Below are positions 294 to 13,541 of a stretch of DNA of 40,186 bases, one piece after another. The DNA is taken from positions 1 to 40,186 of IMG/VR virus record IMGVR_UViG_3300043173_000130; one strand, written 5' to 3'. Made by a program: the position numbers and the translations under genes. The DNA is from a virus (taxonomy: Duplodnaviria > Caudoviricetes). Every line of letters begins with the position of its first letter. Positions within the stretch are counted from its first letter, which is position 1. The notes beneath the pieces are model-generated. The model was given only the letters and a program-made list of their open reading frames with translations, did no database searches and had not been told where the DNA came from.

Positions 294-677
294 TTAGCCT
301 TGGTCCACGTAGCCCTTGCCACGCGGAACCCCGCTATCAGGGTTCATGTATTTGTTCATGCCATCCACACTATCCAGAGCTTCCCTGGCCTCATCCAGCC
401 CATACTTTTCAGCGTGCTGCTGCGCCAGTACGTCACCCGTAGCTCCTGGTCCCGTGGTTACTTCAACCTGCGCCCCCAGTTCGTACTCAATTAGCTTTTC
501 CAGGAAATGCTTGGCCTTGCGCAAGTCTTCCAGCCCATTCTTTTCCTTCCAGCGCAGCACGTACTTGAATATTTGTGCTTCCATGTAGGGCATTTTGTGC
601 ATCAGTACGAAATCCCAATGCTCTATGGGGAAACCTTTGTAGTGGGAGTCCCCCACTTGGCGTTCATTTGCTGTCAT
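294..677 (-). CDS. DUF3310 (T7 gp1.7 nucleotide kinase-like) protein
   Basis: QVGDSHYK..IEHWDF..IFKYVLRWKEKNGLEDLRKAKHFL is the DUF3310 signature; RBS CGAGGTGAA; ATGA overlap with the upstream gene. Confidence 0.85.
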   Translation of the reverse strand: MTANERQVGDSHYKGFPIEHWDFVLMHKMPYMEAQIFKYVLRWKEKNGLEDLRKAKHFLEKLIEYELGAQVEVTTGPGATGDVLAQQHAEKYGLDEAREALDSVDGMNKYMNPDSGVPRGKGYVDQG

Positions 678-1663
678 TTTTCACCTCGTCTATGTAACCA
701 ACTCACACAAGCATAGCGCCAGTCAGGGGCGTCTATGCGGTCGGCCCATACCTGGGCACCCTTGATATCCTTAAACTTGTACGCTTTGAGTGCTTGCCAC
801 ATAGGGTATGCTACACCAGACAAAAAAGGATAGCTAGTGAGTTCACCATGCGGTGTTTCTAGCCAGTCACACAGCGCATGGTAGAAGTCTAGGTGGTCAC
901 CTGTAAACAACTCAGGCCCTGGCATTATTTCTTTAGTCAGTGTGTATAGGTTGTTCTCATCATTGGGGAAGTTGCTGTACACCTCTTCAAACCGTGGCAT
1001 ATCGGGGTAGACGTGGAAATTGTTGCTGAACTGGGTGTATCTGCCCACGTCCATGTTGAGTGCGCAGGCTATATACTCCTGCATGAAGCTCATGTGGACT
1101 ACGTTTGCCCCGTAGCACCCCCAGATGGCGTCGTTGCTTCGGCAACACACAGTAAGGTCAAGTTCTGCTTCTGTATTACGGTGGGTGATGCTGATGTATG
1201 CGTGGGTGTTGCAGGGAATGTCCTTGCCCCCATTGTGGTCAAAGGCGGGGTTCCACATCGTTAGAACGGCCCGCCTGCTGTCTGGGTCTTTACGTAGCTG
1301 GTTTATCACAGCGTTAAGTTGGTCGTAACCAAACTCATGTCGCCAGCGATATCCGTAGGCCCCCTGTAAGAACCTGCCGTCATCGCTGTATTCGTACATA
1401 CGCTTCACTATGTTGCCCACGTACTCAACGTCGTTGCGCCCCGCCAGCATCCACAGGGCTTCAAAGAAGTGAAAGAAAGGGTTGGCGTCCCTTACAGAGT
1501 CGAATAGTACACGCTCCCTAGGATTGTGATAAACATTAACCACGGGACCAGGAGCCACAATAACCGGACCATTACGACTTTCTTGCATTTCGCCATCAAT
1601 TTTAAGATGCCATAAGCCATCCGGATAATTATCATTTACGTTGCGTCTAGATATCACGTGCAT
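674..1663 (-). CDS. Thymidylate synthase superfamily protein, probable dUMP hydroxymethylase
   Basis: SRNG, ANPFFHFFEALWMLAG, GAYGYRWR, DPDSRRAV, catalytic DIPCN, RSND..WG..GAN (Asn points to dUMP rather than dCMP), NNFHVY; adjacent to hmU kinase-like gene. Confidence 0.88.
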   Translation of the reverse strand: MHVISRRNVNDNYPDGLWHLKIDGEMQESRNGPVIVAPGPVVNVYHNPRERVLFDSVRDANPFFHFFEALWMLAGRNDVEYVGNIVKRMYEYSDDGRFLQGAYGYRWRHEFGYDQLNAVINQLRKDPDSRRAVLTMWNPAFDHNGGKDIPCNTHAYISITHRNTEAELDLTVCCRSNDAIWGCYGANVVHMSFMQEYIACALNMDVGRYTQFSNNFHVYPDMPRFEEVYSNFPNDENNLYTLTKEIMPGPELFTGDHLDFYHALCDWLETPHGELTSYPFLSGVAYPMWQALKAYKFKDIKGAQVWADRIDAPDWRYACVSWLHRRGEK

Positions 1664-1835
1664 CAGGTGTCACCTCGTCAATAAACTCCAGCCCGTGATC
1701 TTCTGCAAACACCTCCGCATCTTCTATACAACCGAAGACCTGTATCCAGGTGGGCGGCTCCCCCGGCACGTTCAGATTAGCAGTTACCCTGCCATCATCA
1801 AACTGTGTTCTTACTGTAAGGGTGCCTTCAGCCAC
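1647..1835 (-). CDS. Small acidic hypothetical protein (62 aa from GTG 1835)
   Basis: Fills the gap between neighbours and overlaps both; the track start at 1865 is probably too long. Confidence 0.6.
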   Translation of the reverse strand: MAEGTLTVRTQFDDGRVTANLNVPGEPPTWIQVFGCIEDAEVFAEDHGLEFIDEVTPDARDI

Positions 1836-2679
1836 TTCGGTACCTCTGCTTCGGTTTGCCCTCACCTAAGTAGGTGCGGTCGTATTTATCGAATTCGCAC
1901 AAGCAGTTTTGGAAGTCTTGCATATCTATTCCAGGCATCGGGTTAAGCCTGTCGCGTATGCGCCCCCACATAGCCAGGGCCACCCCCATAAAAGAACCCC
2001 TGGTGACGCCTGTCGAGCCTACCAGACGCTTTAATCCCCGCATACTACCAGGGCCAGGGGCACACCATGTGAGGTGGTCAGCGGCGTCCTGTAGCGGGTG
2101 TCCAGGCGTGTTCTTGAGGTCCGCAATAATCTGTGCTGCTAGGAAATCACCGAGTCCTTTCACGTTTGTTAGCCTGCTGTGGTAGTCTGCCAGTGTAACA
2201 TAACATGGCGTTCTTAGCACGCGGTCTTTATAGACGTCGTTCACCACACGGTAGACATAGTCTATCTTATCCATCTTAACGCCGCAGGTGGTGATAAGAT
2301 ACGCCCCGTTGAAGCACTTTTCCCCACGGGCACGCCGATCCTTAGACACACGGCACATATCATCTAAGTCCCAGCTTATAAAGGGCTGGAGTTCAACTAG
2401 GTGGTCGGGTAGGTTGAACATTCGGGCTAGAGTCATAGCCGCAGTGAGGTTCGAGTGGGTAGCGTTTTCGTTCCGCCAGTTACGGGCAACCCACTTCGTT
2501 ACTTTATCATTTTCCCTATGTACGTTGCAAAATCTATAGCTCTGCAAGATGGTATCACTGGTCCATGGGGGTTGCACCCCGTTCATACGCTTGGCGTAGA
2601 TACTGTACCGCTCGTTAATCCAATGAATTAACCTTCCTTCTACCATCTGCATAGGCTCTTTTCCATTGTATGCGTACAT
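1828..2679 (-). CDS. 5-hmdU DNA kinase-like protein (aGPT-Pplase1, helical glycosylase-like fold)
   Basis: WINERYSI..PWTSDTILQSYRFCNVHRENDKVT, FNGAYLI, GLGDFLAAQIIADL, PGPGSMRGL, QNCLCEFDKY; true start may be ATG 2652. Confidence 0.85.
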   Translation of the reverse strand: MYAYNGKEPMQMVEGRLIHWINERYSIYAKRMNGVQPPWTSDTILQSYRFCNVHRENDKVTKWVARNWRNENATHSNLTAAMTLARMFNLPDHLVELQPFISWDLDDMCRVSKDRRARGEKCFNGAYLITTCGVKMDKIDYVYRVVNDVYKDRVLRTPCYVTLADYHSRLTNVKGLGDFLAAQIIADLKNTPGHPLQDAADHLTWCAPGPGSMRGLKRLVGSTGVTRGSFMGVALAMWGRIRDRLNPMPGIDMQDFQNCLCEFDKYDRTYLGEGKPKQRYRSG

Positions 2680-3403
2680 CAGTTCGCTCCTTACCGCCCC
2701 AAGCGGTCTTCGTACGTTTTTTCACCAGGGTTACATACTCTGGGAACGCAGTGGCTAGCTCACGTGCCGCCCGCGCCTGCTCGTCCATAGTACGGTACTG
2801 GCTACACCCTCCATCGGTGTTGCTACCCACTTGGTCGTGTACCCAATCACTGAGGAGCAGGTTGCCATAGCCCGCAGTCAGCAAGCTAAGGCTCACGTAG
2901 AAGTCTTCCATCAGGTGCATGGCGTCAAAGCGTATGTCATGCAAGCGCAGCACAGTGACATCATAGGCCAGCACACGTAGAGTCCTGGTGTTGCGGTAAA
3001 ATTCGTTGGGCAGCCTGTTCCCGCCCTCCCTGGTACAGACGCCAACGTGAGCGTGAAACTCTAGGTGGGTACGGATGGCGTCAAGCATCATATCCACAAC
3101 GGTGTTGTTCGCTGGTTGAAACTTGGTACGGTCATCAAACCTGCGCTCAAAGAAGGTAAGGTCGTCATCCAGCATCAACAGATACTGGCCGGGACAGTTA
3201 TCAACTATCCACTGACGCGTGTTGCCGATGCCGTTCACTGGGCACTTCAGTATTTGTGCCCCGCTGCCTGAGCAACGGGTCATGTATTCGGGCCACTCGT
3301 CGGATGGCACCACTACTGAGGCGTTCCGCCGCCAAGAAAATGGAAGATTCTCAAGCGTAATCTGACGCGTAGCTCTACCAGAGCTAGGAATATAGATGTG
3401 CAT
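2615..3403 (-). CDS. GT-A glycosyltransferase of the TAGT/GREB1/JGT (base J glucosyltransferase-related) family
   Basis: IYIPSSGR, GIGNTRQWI, LMLDDDL (DxD), EDFYVSLSLL..G, NTDGGCS; RBS CGAGGTGAA. Confidence 0.82.
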   Translation of the reverse strand: MHIYIPSSGRATRQITLENLPFSWRRNASVVVPSDEWPEYMTRCSGSGAQILKCPVNGIGNTRQWIVDNCPGQYLLMLDDDLTFFERRFDDRTKFQPANNTVVDMMLDAIRTHLEFHAHVGVCTREGGNRLPNEFYRNTRTLRVLAYDVTVLRLHDIRFDAMHLMEDFYVSLSLLTAGYGNLLLSDWVHDQVGSNTDGGCSQYRTMDEQARAARELATAFPEYVTLVKKRTKTAWGGKERTDVRIQWKRAYADGRRKVNSLD

Positions 3404-3422
3404 TATTCACCTCGTAAAGATC

Positions 3423-9962: not shown

Positions 9963-10340
9963 CTATTTGTGCTTAGTGACGCTTAGACTTTCAACAGGGT
10001 AAGCGCCGACCCCTGGTATTTGTTCACCTGCGTCCCACCGCTCCTTGACTGCAACGGTGCCCAGACGTTTGTGCAATAACTCCCACGCCTTATTCTCGTA
10101 GATGTAAGCGTATATCTCATCCCAGTCATCAGCCTGTGGCTCGTCCTTTACCACACGCTCAAAGTTGTGGGTTGCTCCACCTATGACGGGTACGTCTTGG
10201 TCACACAATTCCTGGAGTATTTCTTCCTTGTATTTGTTTTCAATTTTCTTGGTAGACTCGGCTACCTTTTCTTGGTCTAGTCGCAGCTTGCGCGTCGTTT
10301 GATACATATCGCACAGCTTGCTTAATTCACTTAGTTCCAT
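9963..10340 (-). CDS. Phage replication-module protein (coiled coil plus DWD..Y..I motif)
   Basis: RBS CGAGGTGAA; DWDEIYAYIYENKAWELLHKRL..IPGV. Confidence 0.75.
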   Translation of the reverse strand: MELSELSKLCDMYQTTRKLRLDQEKVAESTKKIENKYKEEILQELCDQDVPVIGGATHNFERVVKDEPQADDWDEIYAYIYENKAWELLHKRLGTVAVKERWDAGEQIPGVGAYPVESLSVTKHK

Positions 10341-10372
10341 GTTTCACCTCGTATGTGCTGGCGCACCCCCAT

Positions 10373-10401
10373 AGTATATGCGTGAACTTAGTCCACTGCA
10401 A
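10373..10401 (-). promoter_or_regulatory. Sigma70-like promoter
   Basis: TTGCAG, 17 bp, TATACT. Confidence 0.6.
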
Positions 10402-10609
10402 CCGGAATATCCTCAGGGGATGCGGCCAGTATAGCTTCAACATTTTCCCAAATTTGTTCAGCCATCACTTTTTTGTTGCTGAGAAGATCTGGGTTTGCAT
10501 ACATTCCAGATGCGACGTGCGCCGCCAGAAAATGTTTGTATTTGATGCCAATACACTGCTCATCTGCAGGAACTGGATGTACTTGATACTCTCCAACTTC
10601 TTTACCCAC
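10388..10609 (-). CDS. Hypothetical protein
   Basis: GTG start with RBS GAGGAGG. Confidence 0.7.
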   Translation of the reverse strand: MGKEVGEYQVHPVPADEQCIGIKYKHFLAAHVASGMYANPDLLSNKKVMAEQIWENVEAILAASPEDIPVAVD

Positions 10610-10620
10610 TTCTCCTCCTC

Positions 10621-10836
10621 TTAATGAATTGGTTGTCGCAAGAGGTAGCCTAGCTCCACGCCTTCATCAGCTTGCTCTTTGGTGAGGTCACCTAGCGGGA
10701 AACTGTTGCACACCTTTCCGCTATACACCTCTTTCTTTTCGAGGTTCCAAGACAGGTACTCATCCAGCGTATGGCCGTCACGCGTTAAACACTTGTCCCA
10801 GTATTCATCCATCACTTGTGTGTATGACTTGCTCAT
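10621..10836 (-). CDS. Hypothetical protein
   Basis: RBS CCGAGGTG; operon packing. Confidence 0.7.
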   Translation of the reverse strand: MSKSYTQVMDEYWDKCLTRDGHTLDEYLSWNLEKKEVYSGKVCNSFPLGDLTKEQADEGVELGYLLRQPIH

Positions 10837-11089
10837 TAAACACCTCGGTCAATGCTTTGTCTAGCTCGATGTAGCTCAATATATGAGCTATATCAGGCTG
10901 GGATTCGCCTAAAGCTATAGAACGCAAGCGGGCGCGGTCTAGGCGAACGCTGGTGCCCGTGCGTAGTAGAGATAGATTAGAGACTATTCGTCCCATTTGA
11001 TTGGCGGTAACTGCCAGGGGCCGGTCTTTGACCCGGCTGATGGCAGCCACAAGCCCGTAGGCGGCTTCATACATAGGGGTATAGGGCAT
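10805..11089 (-). CDS. Hypothetical protein, possibly from a leaderless mRNA
   Basis: ATG about 6 nt downstream of a -10 box (TTGCAC, 16 bp, TAGCAT at 11123-11096). Confidence 0.65.
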   Translation of the reverse strand: MPYTPMYEAAYGLVAAISRVKDRPLAVTANQMGRIVSNLSLLRTGTSVRLDRARLRSIALGESQPDIAHILSYIELDKALTEVFNEQVIHTSDG

Positions 11090-11141
11090 GGTGCCATGCT
11101 ACCATTGTCGGTAGTCAGTGCAAGCGTGGTTTTGTGAACAT

Positions 11142-11236
11142 AAAAAACGAATCCCCATTGGGATGGTCCTAGCGCCGCCTAGTTGGGGTCAGCGTGCCAG
11201 TGTACCGTAGGATTCGGTAACTGAGTTACCAGCTAC
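11142..11236 (-). ncRNA. Candidate small RNA (~95 nt)
   Basis: Near-consensus promoter TTGCAA, 17 bp, TATAAT (11270-11242); internal hairpin ggtaac-tca-gttacc; ends in a short hairpin plus U6; no convincing ORF. Confidence 0.5.
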
Positions 11237-11276
11237 AGGGTATTATACCGGAGACTTGGGTCAATTGCAACCCCTG

Positions 11277-11355
11277 AAAACAAAGCCCCCGATAAGGGGG
11301 CTCGTCCAGGACCGAGGTGAACGTATCCCTAGTGACACCGGAAGCGGGGCACATG
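11277..11355 (-). ncRNA. Candidate small RNA (~78 nt) with anti-RBS seed UUCACCUCGGUC
   Basis: Promoter TTGCCT, 18 bp, TATAGT with TG extension (11390-11361); terminator agccccc/gggggct plus U-tract (11302-11277). Confidence 0.5.
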
Positions 11356-11360
11356 GGGTC

Positions 11361-11406
11361 ACTATACCACAGACCGCTTGTCTGAGGCAAGCGGTTACGT
11401 TATACT
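11361..11406. promoter_or_regulatory. Overlapping divergent promoters sharing an operator-like palindrome
   Basis: Plus: TTGTCT 11378, 17 bp, TATACT 11401; minus: TTGCCT, 18 bp, TATAGT; IR accgcttg 11373-11380 / caagcggt 11388-11395. Confidence 0.65.
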
Positions 11407-11432
11407 ATTTAACTTACTAGCGAGGTGGCGGC

Positions 11433-13541
11433 GTGGATAAAGACGATACCCCTGACTCACCCCCTGAGTCAGAAAAACCTAAACTAAGATTCAGCACCGT
11501 CCCTTCTGACGGCAAGCTACCCAACCACTTCAATCACGCACAAGAGTATCTCGCCAAGCGAGGTATTGATCAGGCGTTGTGTGATAAGCTAGGCTTTAAG
11601 ATCATGCCAGCAGCGCAGTGGTTCACTGAGACCTACCCTGGTAGTAAGAGCAAAGATGTACGTATCTCTATTGTATTCCCACATCTTAACTATAAAGGAG
11701 AGGATACAGGATGGAACAGCGTAAAATTCATCCGCACACGCACGCAGGGGGCGACATTCGTACAGGACTCACGGCCGACGCGGAGCAGCAAGAAGGGGGA
11801 GTTGATACACGCCTACTTATGTCCGCTGAAGAATTGGCGCAATTTGCAGAAGGGTCAGAGGATATATATCTGCGAATCTGTAATCAAAGCAGTGAATGTC
11901 GCACTATTAGGATTCCACGCAGTTGGTTTGAACGGGGTAGCAGCATTTGCCTCTGCAAAGAAGGGTGTGGACCTACTAACCGAGATTAAAGACCTGCCCT
12001 GGCAGCGGTTAGAACTTCAACCTGTCATTATGTATGACAGCGACCACGAAAAGTACGACATAACCCGCGCCTACGAAACCCTCGCCAACAAGTTAGTCAA
12101 CCTTTGTAAGTCCCCCCTCCCCGTCTACCTCCCCCTACAGAAGCGTGAAGATGGTGAAGACTGGGGCTTTGACGATGCCCGACACCAATTAGGTGACAAA
12201 TGGGCACTTGAATTCCTTTCTGGCGAGGGTGGGGTAATCCCACTAGACCCTATACGACAGGCTCTACACGACACTAACGATATGTTTATCGTTGTTAGGG
12301 GCGTAAGCGCGATTGTAGAACTCAAGACTGGCAACATTATGACAGAGTCCAAGTTTAGGACAGTCAACTATGCCAACAAAATTGAGTGGACTGATGACGG
12401 TAAGGCGATACAAATCGCTAAGAGTTGGCTACAGTGGAAAGATAGGCACGAGTGTGAAGGCATAGAGTATATGCCGGGTGGCGGACAAATCCACAATGAC
12501 TCCTATAATGCTTGGAAAGGCATGGGTACTGAGCCTGTAAAGGGGGATGTTACTCCGTGGCTAGACATTATCAACAATAATATACGCTCAGAGAAAGAGC
12601 GTAAGTACCTAATTCAATGGTGTGCATATCCTGTGCAGAACCTGGGGGCAAAGTTGCACACTTCAGTTGTGCTGGTGGGTGTTCAAGGCATAGGTAAATC
12701 ACTACTTGCCAGGTCACTGGGCATGGTATACGGGAATAATAATTATAAAGAAGTGGATAGAGGGGATATAACTGGCTCATTTAACGCATTCTGGACCCAG
12801 AGTCAGCTAGTTGTAGTGGAGGAAATGCGGGGGGAACATAAAACCGCAGACAAAGCCTTCATGGGTAGATTGAAAAAGATAATCACTAGTGACCAATATA
12901 TAGTGAAGAAGAAACATGTTCAAGAATATAATATCACAAACCACGTTAATTTCCTCTTTACAACCAACGACGCAGACTCATTTTCCTTCGAAGGAGATGA
13001 CCGACGCTTCTTTGTGGCTCATTTTGAGCCTGTTGTGGATTACTACCGCGATACTGGCTACTGGAATCGCTTCGTGGCGTGGCTTAATGGCGATGGTGTT
13101 GCTGCCCTGCATCATTATCTGCTTAATGTGGACATGGAAGGCTTTGATCCTGGTGAGCCTGCACCTGAAACAGAATATAAAAAGGTGATGGAAGAGGCTG
13201 CGTACAGTGGTCCCGAGGCATGGATTAACTTGTTGCTTAGTGACGCTCGTGAAATGCTAGGTAGTGAACGCGCCCTGTGGAAAAGCCGTGAACTAGCAGA
13301 GGTGTACTACGAGGGGGATGTCCATAGCGGCCCCGCAGCCGCCAAAGCATTCAGCAACTATATGCTCAACCGTGGGTTTGTGATGGCAAACACTAACACG
13401 AACATCGGTAATCGTAAGATGGGAAAGGCTAAATACTGGATAGTACAGGACCGTGATAACCCGCTGTGGCACGATCATGGGTACTGCGTGGTACACCTCT
13501 TAGAGCATTTGGCTGAGCTTGCTCCTGATTCTAAGTATTAA
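11433..13541 (+). CDS. Primase-helicase (N-terminal TOPRIM-like domain; C-terminal DUF5906/D5-like SF3 helicase)
   Basis: YICESVIKA and VIMYDSD (TOPRIM); GVQGIGKS (Walker A), LVVVEE (Walker B), FTTN, DDRRF. Confidence 0.9.
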   Translation: MDKDDTPDSPPESEKPKLRFSTVPSDGKLPNHFNHAQEYLAKRGIDQALCDKLGFKIMPAAQWFTETYPGSKSKDVRISIVFPHLNYKGEDTGWNSVKFIRTRTQGATFVQDSRPTRSSKKGELIHAYLCPLKNWRNLQKGQRIYICESVIKAVNVALLGFHAVGLNGVAAFASAKKGVDLLTEIKDLPWQRLELQPVIMYDSDHEKYDITRAYETLANKLVNLCKSPLPVYLPLQKREDGEDWGFDDARHQLGDKWALEFLSGEGGVIPLDPIRQALHDTNDMFIVVRGVSAIVELKTGNIMTESKFRTVNYANKIEWTDDGKAIQIAKSWLQWKDRHECEGIEYMPGGGQIHNDSYNAWKGMGTEPVKGDVTPWLDIINNNIRSEKERKYLIQWCAYPVQNLGAKLHTSVVLVGVQGIGKSLLARSLGMVYGNNNYKEVDRGDITGSFNAFWTQSQLVVVEEMRGEHKTADKAFMGRLKKIITSDQYIVKKKHVQEYNITNHVNFLFTTNDADSFSFEGDDRRFFVAHFEPVVDYYRDTGYWNRFVAWLNGDGVAALHHYLLNVDMEGFDPGEPAPETEYKKVMEEAAYSGPEAWINLLLSDAREMLGSERALWKSRELAEVYYEGDVHSGPAAAKAFSNYMLNRGFVMANTNTNIGNRKMGKAKYWIVQDRDNPLWHDHGYCVVHLLEHLAELAPDSKY

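What the first reader, a model, noticed from the sequence alone, without database searches (positions are those of the whole stretch)
11277..11355. Candidate sRNA complementary to the phage's own unusual RBS (CGAGGUGAA)
A promoter-terminator unit with no convincing ORF would produce an RNA containing 5'-CGUUCACCUCGGUC-3' (11323-11310). Five left-arm genes share the RBS CGAGGUG: DUF3310 (680-688), hydroxymethylase (1670-1677), glycosyltransferase (3406-3414), the 10340 gene (10343-10351) and the 10836 gene (10841-10850). Complementarity is 8-10 nt and uses G where the 16S anti-SD has C, so pairing would favour phage over host mRNAs. Inference: a trans-acting anti-SD RNA that coordinately shuts down DNA-modification and replication genes.
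Basis: partly seen in the sequence, partly recalled or inferred. Interest (0 to 1): 0.72.

Follow-up and report, generated by a model that had tools for sequence, protein, structure and literature searches.

The report
Conserved phage anti-ribosome-site small RNA
A group of uncultured marine-sediment phages keeps, back-to-back with its primase gene, a 78-base three-hairpin unit that is likely a small RNA gene, and its unchanging loop mirrors the ribosome-binding site of the primase and a few other early genes, so it likely damps their translation, although neither the transcript nor any target has been shown.

Summary
The element is real. A promoter–RNA–terminator unit at 11354→11277 (minus strand) is conserved 77–79 nt upstream of the primase gene in 9 distinct sequences from phages with 47–100% primase identity. 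Hairpin 2 covaries (3 of 5 pairs change on both sides) around an invariant UCACCUC loop. Hairpin 1 keeps a CUUCC loop. Rfam has no match.

Seven of 9 sequences carry the ordinary anti-Shine-Dalgarno C, and seed flanks do not track each phage's own ribosome-binding sites (RBS; permutation p 0.15 and 0.94). The DUF3310 and thymidylate-synthase sites are not conserved. GAGGUG is kept at the primase (9 of 9), a DUF7307/Gp157-like gene (8 of 8) and the glycosyltransferase (5 of 5). It is absent from the first two genes in RNA-less relatives (0 of 74, 0 of 35), but this is one clade.

Sister phages have, at the same place, an apparent CopA/tap-like cis-antisense RNA over a primase-coupled leader peptide.

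Best reading (about 50%): a trans-acting anti-SD repressor of the phage's own early and replication genes. No expression or target data exist. The scan noted similar phage anti-SD RNAs on other DNA, none similar in sequence.

The parts
11277..11354 (-). Predicted small RNA, 78 nt (75-79 nt in relatives), three hairpins
   Evidence: predicted +1 is an A 6 nt after the -10 box in 9 of 10 element copies listed (8 nt in L004)
11331..11352 (-). Hairpin 1, loop with invariant GCUUCC (CUUCC at 11344-11340); possible second anti-SD/anti-GGA seed, partner unknown
   Evidence: U-A to C-G change in L003/L011
11308..11329 (-). Hairpin 2, covarying stem, loop with invariant UCACCUC (11320-11314), the anti-Shine-Dalgarno seed
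   Evidence: 43 of 45 cells paired, 3 of 5 pairs with two-sided changes; first six seed bases unpaired with probability 0.88-1.0
11277..11307 (-). Intrinsic terminator hairpin (core 11303-11283) with G-U-rich basal extension and U tail; UUCG loop in L003, L011, L013
11361..11390 (-). Promoter of the RNA: -35 TTGCCT (11390-11385), extended -10 TG.TATAGT (11369-11361)
   Evidence: conserved with TG and 17-18 nt spacing in the 8 sequences where one search placed the primase start correctly, and in L015
11378..11406 (+). Divergent primase promoter TTGTCT-17-TATACT; its -35 lies back-to-back with that of the RNA promoter inside a palindrome (11373-11395)
   Evidence: (found in 7 of 8 clade members, not called in L003)
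11421..11427 (+). Primase RBS CGAGGTG, candidate target; GAGGTG in 9 of 9 clade sequences
11433..13541 (+). Primase-helicase gene (702 aa; PHROG DNA primase, DUF5906/VapE-like)
10343..10351 (-). RBS of the 125-aa DUF7307/Gp157-like gene (9963-10340), candidate target; GAGGTGA in 8 of 8 orthologues
3406..3414 (-). RBS of the TAGT-family glycosyltransferase (2615-3403), candidate target; GAGGTGA in 5 of 5 orthologues
10841..10850 (-). RBS of the 71-aa gene, 10-nt match in the window only; the L006 counterpart lacks GAGGTG
1670..1677 (-). RBS of the thymidylate-synthase-like gene; match not conserved (0 of 3 orthologues)
680..688 (-). RBS of the DUF3310 gene; match not conserved (0 of 2 orthologues)

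Best explanation
This conserved unit is likely a phage small-RNA gene whose exposed anti-Shine-Dalgarno loop would pair in trans with the GAGGUG ribosome-binding sites of the phage's primase and a few other early genes and would thereby lower their translation. Shown in sequence: a conserved promoter, three hairpins and a terminator; a covarying stem around an invariant UCACCUC loop; a promoter back-to-back with the primase promoter; GAGGUG(A) kept at the primase, DUF7307-like and glycosyltransferase genes. Inferred: host RNA polymerase makes the RNA early; a 6-10 bp loop contact, perhaps helped by Hfq, competes with 30S binding; the two overlapping promoters compete, so the unit would act as an RNA brake or switch on replication (slow lysis, carrier state or superinfection control). 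Inferred further: it is the stand-alone counterpart of the cis-antisense RNA that covers a primase-coupled leader peptide in the sister clade. The role of the CUUCC loop is not explained; a second, GGAAG/GGAGG-reading seed is the simplest guess.
For: Unit present in 14 of 14 printed loci with at least 47% primase identity, +1 at 77-79 nt from the primase start. RNA 61-69% identical to the window in distant members against 45-54% for the left flank. Hairpin 2: 9 two-sided changes, 0 of 500 shuffles as high, slid controls at most 2. Minus-strand folds have more pairs than plus-strand folds in 9 of 9 sequences and more G-U pairs in 8 of 9. GAGGTG at primase 9 of 9 against 0 of 74 RNA-less relatives; at the 125-aa gene 8 of 8 against 0 of 35. 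GAGGTG-plus-start density near primase 2.9-4.7 per 10 kb in 5 clade loci against a maximum of 2.58 (mean 0.59) in 78 distant loci. In the window 7 of 21 early and 1 of 23 late genes use it (Fisher p 0.016). With opening energies included, the 125-aa gene ranks 2 of 44, 2 of 27 and 1 of 27, and primase 8 of 44, 3 of 27 and 2 of 27. In the sister clade by primase tree (87/83 support), 6 of 8 loci examined have a minus-strand unit at the same place that overlaps the SD of a 13-26-codon leader ending at or next to the primase start. Loop-displayed anti-SD seeds repress in trans in AbcR1/2 (PMC8844928, passages).
Against: No transcript or target data. Conserved pairing is only 6-7 nt and is the ordinary SD core, so conserved GAGGUG may just mark strongly translated genes in this clade's host. 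Other orthologues also keep their own SD types. All with-RNA sequences form one clade, so the k-of-n contrasts are a single evolutionary comparison, and starts in distant loci were picked automatically, some wrongly. No own-against-other matching of seed flanks: permutation p 0.15 (length) and 0.94 (energy) over 7 genomes; G001's sites fit the window RNA better than its own. Predicted net energies are modest (-7 to -12 kcal/mol), and the ranking largely restates the SD match. No conserved two-site target for both loops was found. The covariance model does not detect the sister-clade RNAs, so homology with them is positional only.
Confidence: 0.5

Rival explanations
1. The RNA is real but aimed at the host: a broad anti-SD RNA that mimics the 16S tail and represses host mRNAs with strong SD sites (host take-over), or one or a few host defence or metabolic mRNAs. 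The phage RBS matches would be incidental.
For: Seven of 9 sequences carry UCACCUCC, the canonical anti-SD core (16S tail recalled). Both loops are invariant while phage RBS flanks do not covary, which fits an external, slowly changing partner. Two distinct anti-SD seeds with many targets is the AbcR1/2 pattern. Genes beside the RNA look leaderless and would escape it (94-aa gene in the window; 2OG-Fe(II) oxygenase in L007 and L015).
Against: The phage's own primase and first early genes carry the best-matching RBS and would be hit first. A phage using the RNA against the host would be expected to avoid GAGGUG, yet this clade has more of it near primase than any of 78 distant loci. The host is unknown, so no host target could be tested.
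Confidence: 0.2
2. The loops bind something other than mRNA start sites: the GGA-motif loops of host CsrB/RsmY/RsmZ-type RNAs (a sponge that frees CsrA/RsmA), or a host or phage protein.
For: Both loops contain UCC in most members and are invariant on variable stems. The CUUCC loop has no conserved phage target. Its complement resembles Rsm GGA hairpin motifs (recalled, not tested).
Against: In the window and L006 the second loop lacks the extra C. The exact fit of UCACCUC to the conserved GAGGUGA sites would be a coincidence. No host or protein evidence.
Confidence: 0.15
3. The hairpins work as single-stranded DNA, as a replication origin or primase-loading site next to the primase gene.
For: Fixed position next to a primase-helicase gene; covarying stems would also form in DNA.
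Against: The structured part starts exactly at the predicted +1 and ends at a U-tailed terminator. G-U pairs are frequent and UUCG loops occur on the minus strand. No iterons were found. DNA folding was not computed.
Confidence: 0.07
4. The motif is a plus-strand RBS for a translated micro-ORF, or part of a primase leader with cis-antisense control as in the sister clade.
For: GGAGGTGA on the plus strand is a perfect SD. A GTG lies 10-12 nt after it in 7 of 8 sequences. Sister phages do have an SD-led leader ORF here.
Against: ORFs from that GTG are 7 to 25 codons, differ in frame and sequence, are absent in L003 and never reach the primase start; the GTG is explained by the hairpin 1 stem. 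No plus-strand promoter was found to the left of the unit in 7 of 8 clade members (one weak call in L003), and the primase has its own promoter 18-20 nt before its start.
Confidence: 0.05

Closest known systems
AbcR1/AbcR2 (alpha-r15) sRNAs of rhizobia (PMC8844928; passages read)
   Same: Trans-acting RNA with two different pyrimidine-rich anti-SD seeds, one in a hairpin loop, predicted to block ribosome-binding sites.
   Different: AbcR1/2 are 114-121 nt chromosomal RNAs with seeds CUCCUCCC and UUCCCCUC, bind Hfq and target transport mRNAs. This RNA is 75-79 nt, phage-encoded, has seeds CUUCC and UCACCUC, and gives no Rfam match.
Cuckoo / alpha-r14 RNAs (PMC4615179; passages read)
   Same: Adjacent hairpins with freely covarying stems and conserved anti-SD-like loops.
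   Different: Cuckoo hairpins all repeat CCUCCUCCC; here the two loops differ and neither has that motif.
c4 RNA of phages P1/P7 and CI RNA of P4 (PMC12197685 passage; PMC4825925 passage)
   Same: Phage RNA with pairing sequences in loops that shuts off the phage's own genes; P4 CI blocks expression of the replication genes.
   Different: CI is processed out of the transcript it controls and pairs with sites on both sides of it. This RNA has its own promoter and terminator, is divergent from its candidate target, has no flanking duplicated target pair and no Rfam C4-type hit.
CopA/CopT/tap/repA of IncFII plasmid R1 (PMC12361487; passages read)
   Same: Small RNA transcribed opposite to a replication gene, next to its start. 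The sister-clade loci match this plan closely (leader ORF coupled to primase).
   Different: In the window clade the RNA does not overlap the predicted primase mRNA and there is no conserved leader peptide, so any control must be in trans through 6-10 nt.

Membership tests
Any Rfam family | Match to a covariance model | tested here: not met
   window 10300-11700, E up to 5: two chance hits elsewhere; L022, L023, L012, L013: none on the element
Stand-alone bacterial/phage small RNA gene | Own conserved promoter and intrinsic terminator, no conserved ORF | tested here: met
Stand-alone bacterial/phage small RNA gene | Structure supported by covariation | tested here: met
   hairpin 2; terminator two-sided changes; hairpin 1 aligned poorly but folds in 9 of 9
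Stand-alone bacterial/phage small RNA gene | Transcript detected | not testable with these tools
   only DNA-type contig runs were listed
Trans-acting anti-SD sRNA (functional class) | Unpaired conserved anti-SD seed | tested here: met
Trans-acting anti-SD sRNA (functional class) | Seed and target change together | tested here: not met
   p 0.15 and 0.94; the core itself does not vary, so only flanks could be tested
Trans-acting anti-SD sRNA (functional class) | Seed-dependent repression of a target | not testable with these tools
   needs reporters or pull-down
AbcR1/2 (alpha-r15) | Seeds CUCCUCCC and UUCCCCUC, length about 115-120 nt | tested here: not met
Cuckoo (alpha-r14) | CCUCCUCCC in every hairpin loop | tested here: not met
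c4 / P4 CI RNA | Lies within the controlled transcript, with complementary sites up- and downstream | tested here: not met
   own promoter and terminator, divergent orientation; no conserved two-site target
CopA/tap-type cis-antisense control | RNA overlaps the leader of the replication-gene mRNA; coupled leader peptide | tested here: not met
   window clade; the sequence pattern is met in sister loci L038, L041, L042, L044 and more loosely L035, L093

The most novel reading that the evidence does not exclude
A plasmid-style cis-antisense replication control was turned into a trans-acting RNA repressor when the primase promoter moved to the other side of the RNA gene. The phage then sorted its genes into an RNA regulon by SD type alone: GAGGUG early and replication genes are repressed, while GGAG late genes and leaderless genes escape. 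Overlapping promoters make this a protein-free RNA switch for latency or timing.
Probability: 0.2. Interest if true: 0.8.

Novelty: new variant of a known kind. Interest (0 to 1): 0.52.

Why it matters
Trans-acting RNAs by which tailed phages control their own replication genes are little known. The parts of a 2025 review that I read (parts 1-2 of 6 plus a term search) list mostly cis-antisense RNAs or host-directed ones. This is an uncatalogued, covariation-supported RNA family with small, cloneable parts and named candidate targets, so it can be tested in a laboratory strain without the host. The two sister architectures (cis with leader peptide, stand-alone with divergent promoter) offer a natural case for studying how cis-antisense and trans-acting RNAs interconvert. 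Interest is limited by the lack of expression or target data, by the failed seed-target covariation test, by the narrow range (one clade), and because anti-SD loop RNAs are a known kind.

Tried and rejected
Rfam: no match. blastn of 10300-11700 against GenBank phages: no match. Sequencing runs: 8 listed, no RNA holder listed; laid contigs only showed the window type, the L006-type variant and a minor further variant, with no listed change at 11295-11336.

Wider family searches: pattern scans of viral contigs gave 3 and 6 hits, of which 2 each were known members; the rest were chance (L021 has no -10 box; L114-L117 scored at most 13.3 bits). A genome scan gave 1 chance hit (L113, 10 bits). These patterns do not match the window-type variant, so absence is not shown. 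The model found nothing above 13.3 bits in the 82 distant loci among 88 sources; several of these hold little sequence upstream of the primase. A primase search of genome contigs found no relative.

Own-against-other seed matching: not significant. A two-site target for both loops: none conserved. Plus-strand micro-ORF: rejected. A plus-strand CsrB/RsmZ-like GGA decoy: considered, rejected because promoter, terminator and G-U pairs point to the minus strand. The automatic orthologue table was swamped by shadow ORFs and was filtered to a hand-curated gene list. RNAalifold on the model alignment misplaced hairpin 1. The 94-aa neighbour gave no usable family.

Paper searches that found no description of this RNA in their listings. 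The library lacks most subscription journals, and supplements (for example the table of 38 uncharacterised phage sRNAs in PMC12197685) were not read.

Full report
Setting. The window is a 40,186-base virus record estimated 97% complete. Public runs that hold it are labelled marine sediment metagenome. The left arm, on the minus strand, carries DUF3310, a thymidylate-synthase-like gene, a 5-hmdU DNA kinase helical-domain protein, a TAGT glycosyltransferase, helicase, nucleases and DNA polymerase. A primase-helicase starts at 11433 on the plus strand, and terminase, portal and capsid genes follow. The best GenBank phage matches to the primase are 28-29% identical.

Observation. A minus-strand promoter (11390-11361) and terminator (11303-11283) enclose 78 nt that contain CGUUCACCUCGGUC. 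Five left-arm genes have 8-10 nt complementary RBS, and the primase RBS (11421-11427) is a sixth, with 7 nt. CGAGGTG is not enriched in the window overall (8 against 4.9 expected; 11 of 100 shuffles). The window RNA alone folds no better than shuffles (z -1.0).

Conservation. A primase alignment fetched 3 viral and 14 metagenome loci. Of 15 printed, the 14 with at least 47% primase identity all carry the unit; L018 (27%, 126 nt upstream) does not. After removing duplicates there are 9 distinct RNA sequences. The predicted +1 is an A 6 nt after an extended -10 box in 9 of 10 copies listed and lies 77-79 nt before the primase start. Distant members are 61-69% identical to the window RNA against 45-54% for the left flank. 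The downstream neighbour varies (a leftward promoter in most, a convergent 2OG-Fe(II) oxygenase gene in L007 and L015), so the unit is not a leader of the left operon.

Structure and strand. Each sequence folds into three hairpins. On the plain MAFFT alignment, hairpin 2 has 43 of 45 cells paired and 3 of 5 pairs with two-sided changes (9 cells; 0 of 500 shuffles; slid controls at most 2). These controls do not correct for relatedness, and there are about four independent changes. The loop UCACCUC and the hairpin 1 motif GCUUCC are invariant. The first six seed bases are unpaired with probability 0.88-1.0. Minus-strand folds have more pairs in 9 of 9 and more G-U pairs in 8 of 9 sequences, although the minimum energy favours the minus strand in only 5 of 9. 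Three terminators have UUCG loops. Plus-strand ORFs after the SD-like motif vary from 7 to 25 codons and are not conserved. I put the chance that this is a real RNA gene at about 0.9.

The G said to give phage specificity is present in 2 of 9 sequences and is base-paired there; 7 of 9 have the canonical anti-SD C (the 16S tail is recalled, and one search shows only part of it). Matching each RNA to its own phage's GAGGUG sites is no better than matching it to another's (7 genomes, all 5040 permutations: p 0.15 for match length, 0.94 for duplex energy). The DUF3310 and thymidylate-synthase sites are private to the window (0 of 2 and 0 of 3 orthologues).

What supports self-targeting. GAGGUG is kept at the primase in 9 of 9 sequences, at the 125-aa DUF7307/Gp157-like gene in 8 of 8, at the glycosyltransferase in 5 of 5, at a 73-aa gene in 3 of 4 and at a 36-37-aa first gene of the left operon in 4 of 5. 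Among 78 distant loci without the RNA, 0 of 74 with a displayed upstream region have it at the primase (three had no start and one no upstream; starts were automatic), and 0 of 35 at the 125-aa orthologue. In the window 7 of 21 early and 1 of 23 late genes use it (p 0.016). In an accessibility-corrected pairing scan the 125-aa gene and primase rank near the top in all three near-complete genomes; the glycosyltransferase ranks 7 of 44, 1 of 27 and 8 of 27. All this is circumstantial: it is one clade, the match is the plain SD core, and other genes also conserve their SD.

Sister architecture. In a primase tree the clade is monophyletic (100/100) and groups, at 87/83, with 8 loci of 33-36% identity. 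Six of these 8 (L035, L038, L041, L042, L044, L093) have a minus-strand -10 box placing an RNA start 46-54 nt before the primase start. In L038, L041, L042 and L044 that start lies 1-3 nt before the start codon of a 13-17-codon SD-led ORF whose stop overlaps or abuts the primase start, so the RNA's 5' end covers that SD. In L041, L042 and L044 a plus-strand promoter lies 133-143 nt upstream. My automatic promoter-terminator filter found only 2 of them; the others were read by hand. L037 and L040 lack the pattern. This is the plan of plasmid R1 CopA/tap/repA (PMC12361487, passages). In the window clade the primase promoter sits instead on the far side of the RNA promoter, back-to-back, 18-20 nt before the start (7 of 8), so the RNA cannot act in cis on that mRNA. 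The model does not recognise the sister RNAs. The correspondence is positional, and its direction is not established.

Mechanism. The most likely reading (0.5) is an early, host-polymerase-made RNA that pairs through its hairpin 2 loop with the short leaders of primase and the first early genes and lowers their translation, with promoter competition adding a transcriptional layer. Rivals: host-directed anti-SD RNA (0.2), sponge or protein ligand (0.15), DNA origin element (0.07), plus-strand micro-ORF (0.05). The CUUCC loop has no identified partner.

Comparison with what is known. It works like the loop-seeded anti-SD RNAs AbcR1/2 and cuckoo (PMC8844928, PMC4615179; passages) and, in purpose, like P1 c4 and P4 CI (PMC12197685, PMC4825925; passages). 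It fails the defining features of each and has no Rfam match. A short RNA upstream of the PAK_P3 primase/helicase gene has been seen experimentally but is a 5'UTR-derived species (10.1101/2023.10.13.562163, passages). My reading was written down before the scan's notes on other phage anti-SD RNAs were shown. Those notes are unchecked, and none was similar in sequence.

Verdict. New variant of a known kind; interest 0.52.

Noticed in passing
L041:5795-5944, L044:5801-5941, L042:5814-5947, L038:1340-1469, L035:5770-5936, L093:5800-5968: Sister phages (33-36% primase identity) have an apparent CopA/tap-like control: plus-strand promoter, hairpin, SD-led 13-26-codon leader ORF ending at or next to the primase start, and a convergent promoter whose RNA starts at the leader's SD.
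   Followed up: partly
window 11140-11236 (minus strand): A second promoter-terminator unit (TTGCAA-17-TATAAT at 11270-11242) gives a ~97-nt structured RNA candidate (z -2.0). It is 96 of 97 identical in L006, with the single change making a G-U pair on the minus strand, and was not found in other loci.
   Followed up: partly
window 10805-11089 (minus strand): A 94-aa ORF appears leaderless (ATG 6 nt after a -10 box) and has orthologues in L006 and G001; no family found. It would escape an anti-SD RNA.
   Followed up: partly
L007:9305-9865 and L015:3919-4479 (plus strand): A 2OG-Fe(II) oxygenase gene, apparently leaderless (ATG 6 nt after TATACT), is inserted convergently against the RNA's terminator.
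   Followed up: no
L025:730-960 (Stenotrophomonas phage AXL3), L026:2350-2590 (PW916), L027:2790-2970: Primase leaders of these distant phages hold a long closed hairpin with an internal CCUCCUCAGC-type motif and a complementary GCUGAGGAG further downstream (clear in L025 and L026), reminiscent of c4/CI-type control; no Rfam hit. Two of these phages are cultured and so testable.
   Followed up: no
window 11373-11395: The back-to-back -35 boxes form a palindrome (up to 24 of 30 symmetric positions in L012, 14 of 30 in others) that might also be an operator.
   Followed up: partly
window 294-3403: DNA-modification cluster: thymidylate-synthase-like, 5-hmdU DNA kinase helical domain (PF18723), TET-associated glycosyltransferase (PF20691) and DUF3310, in a phage with P22-like head genes.
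   Followed up: no
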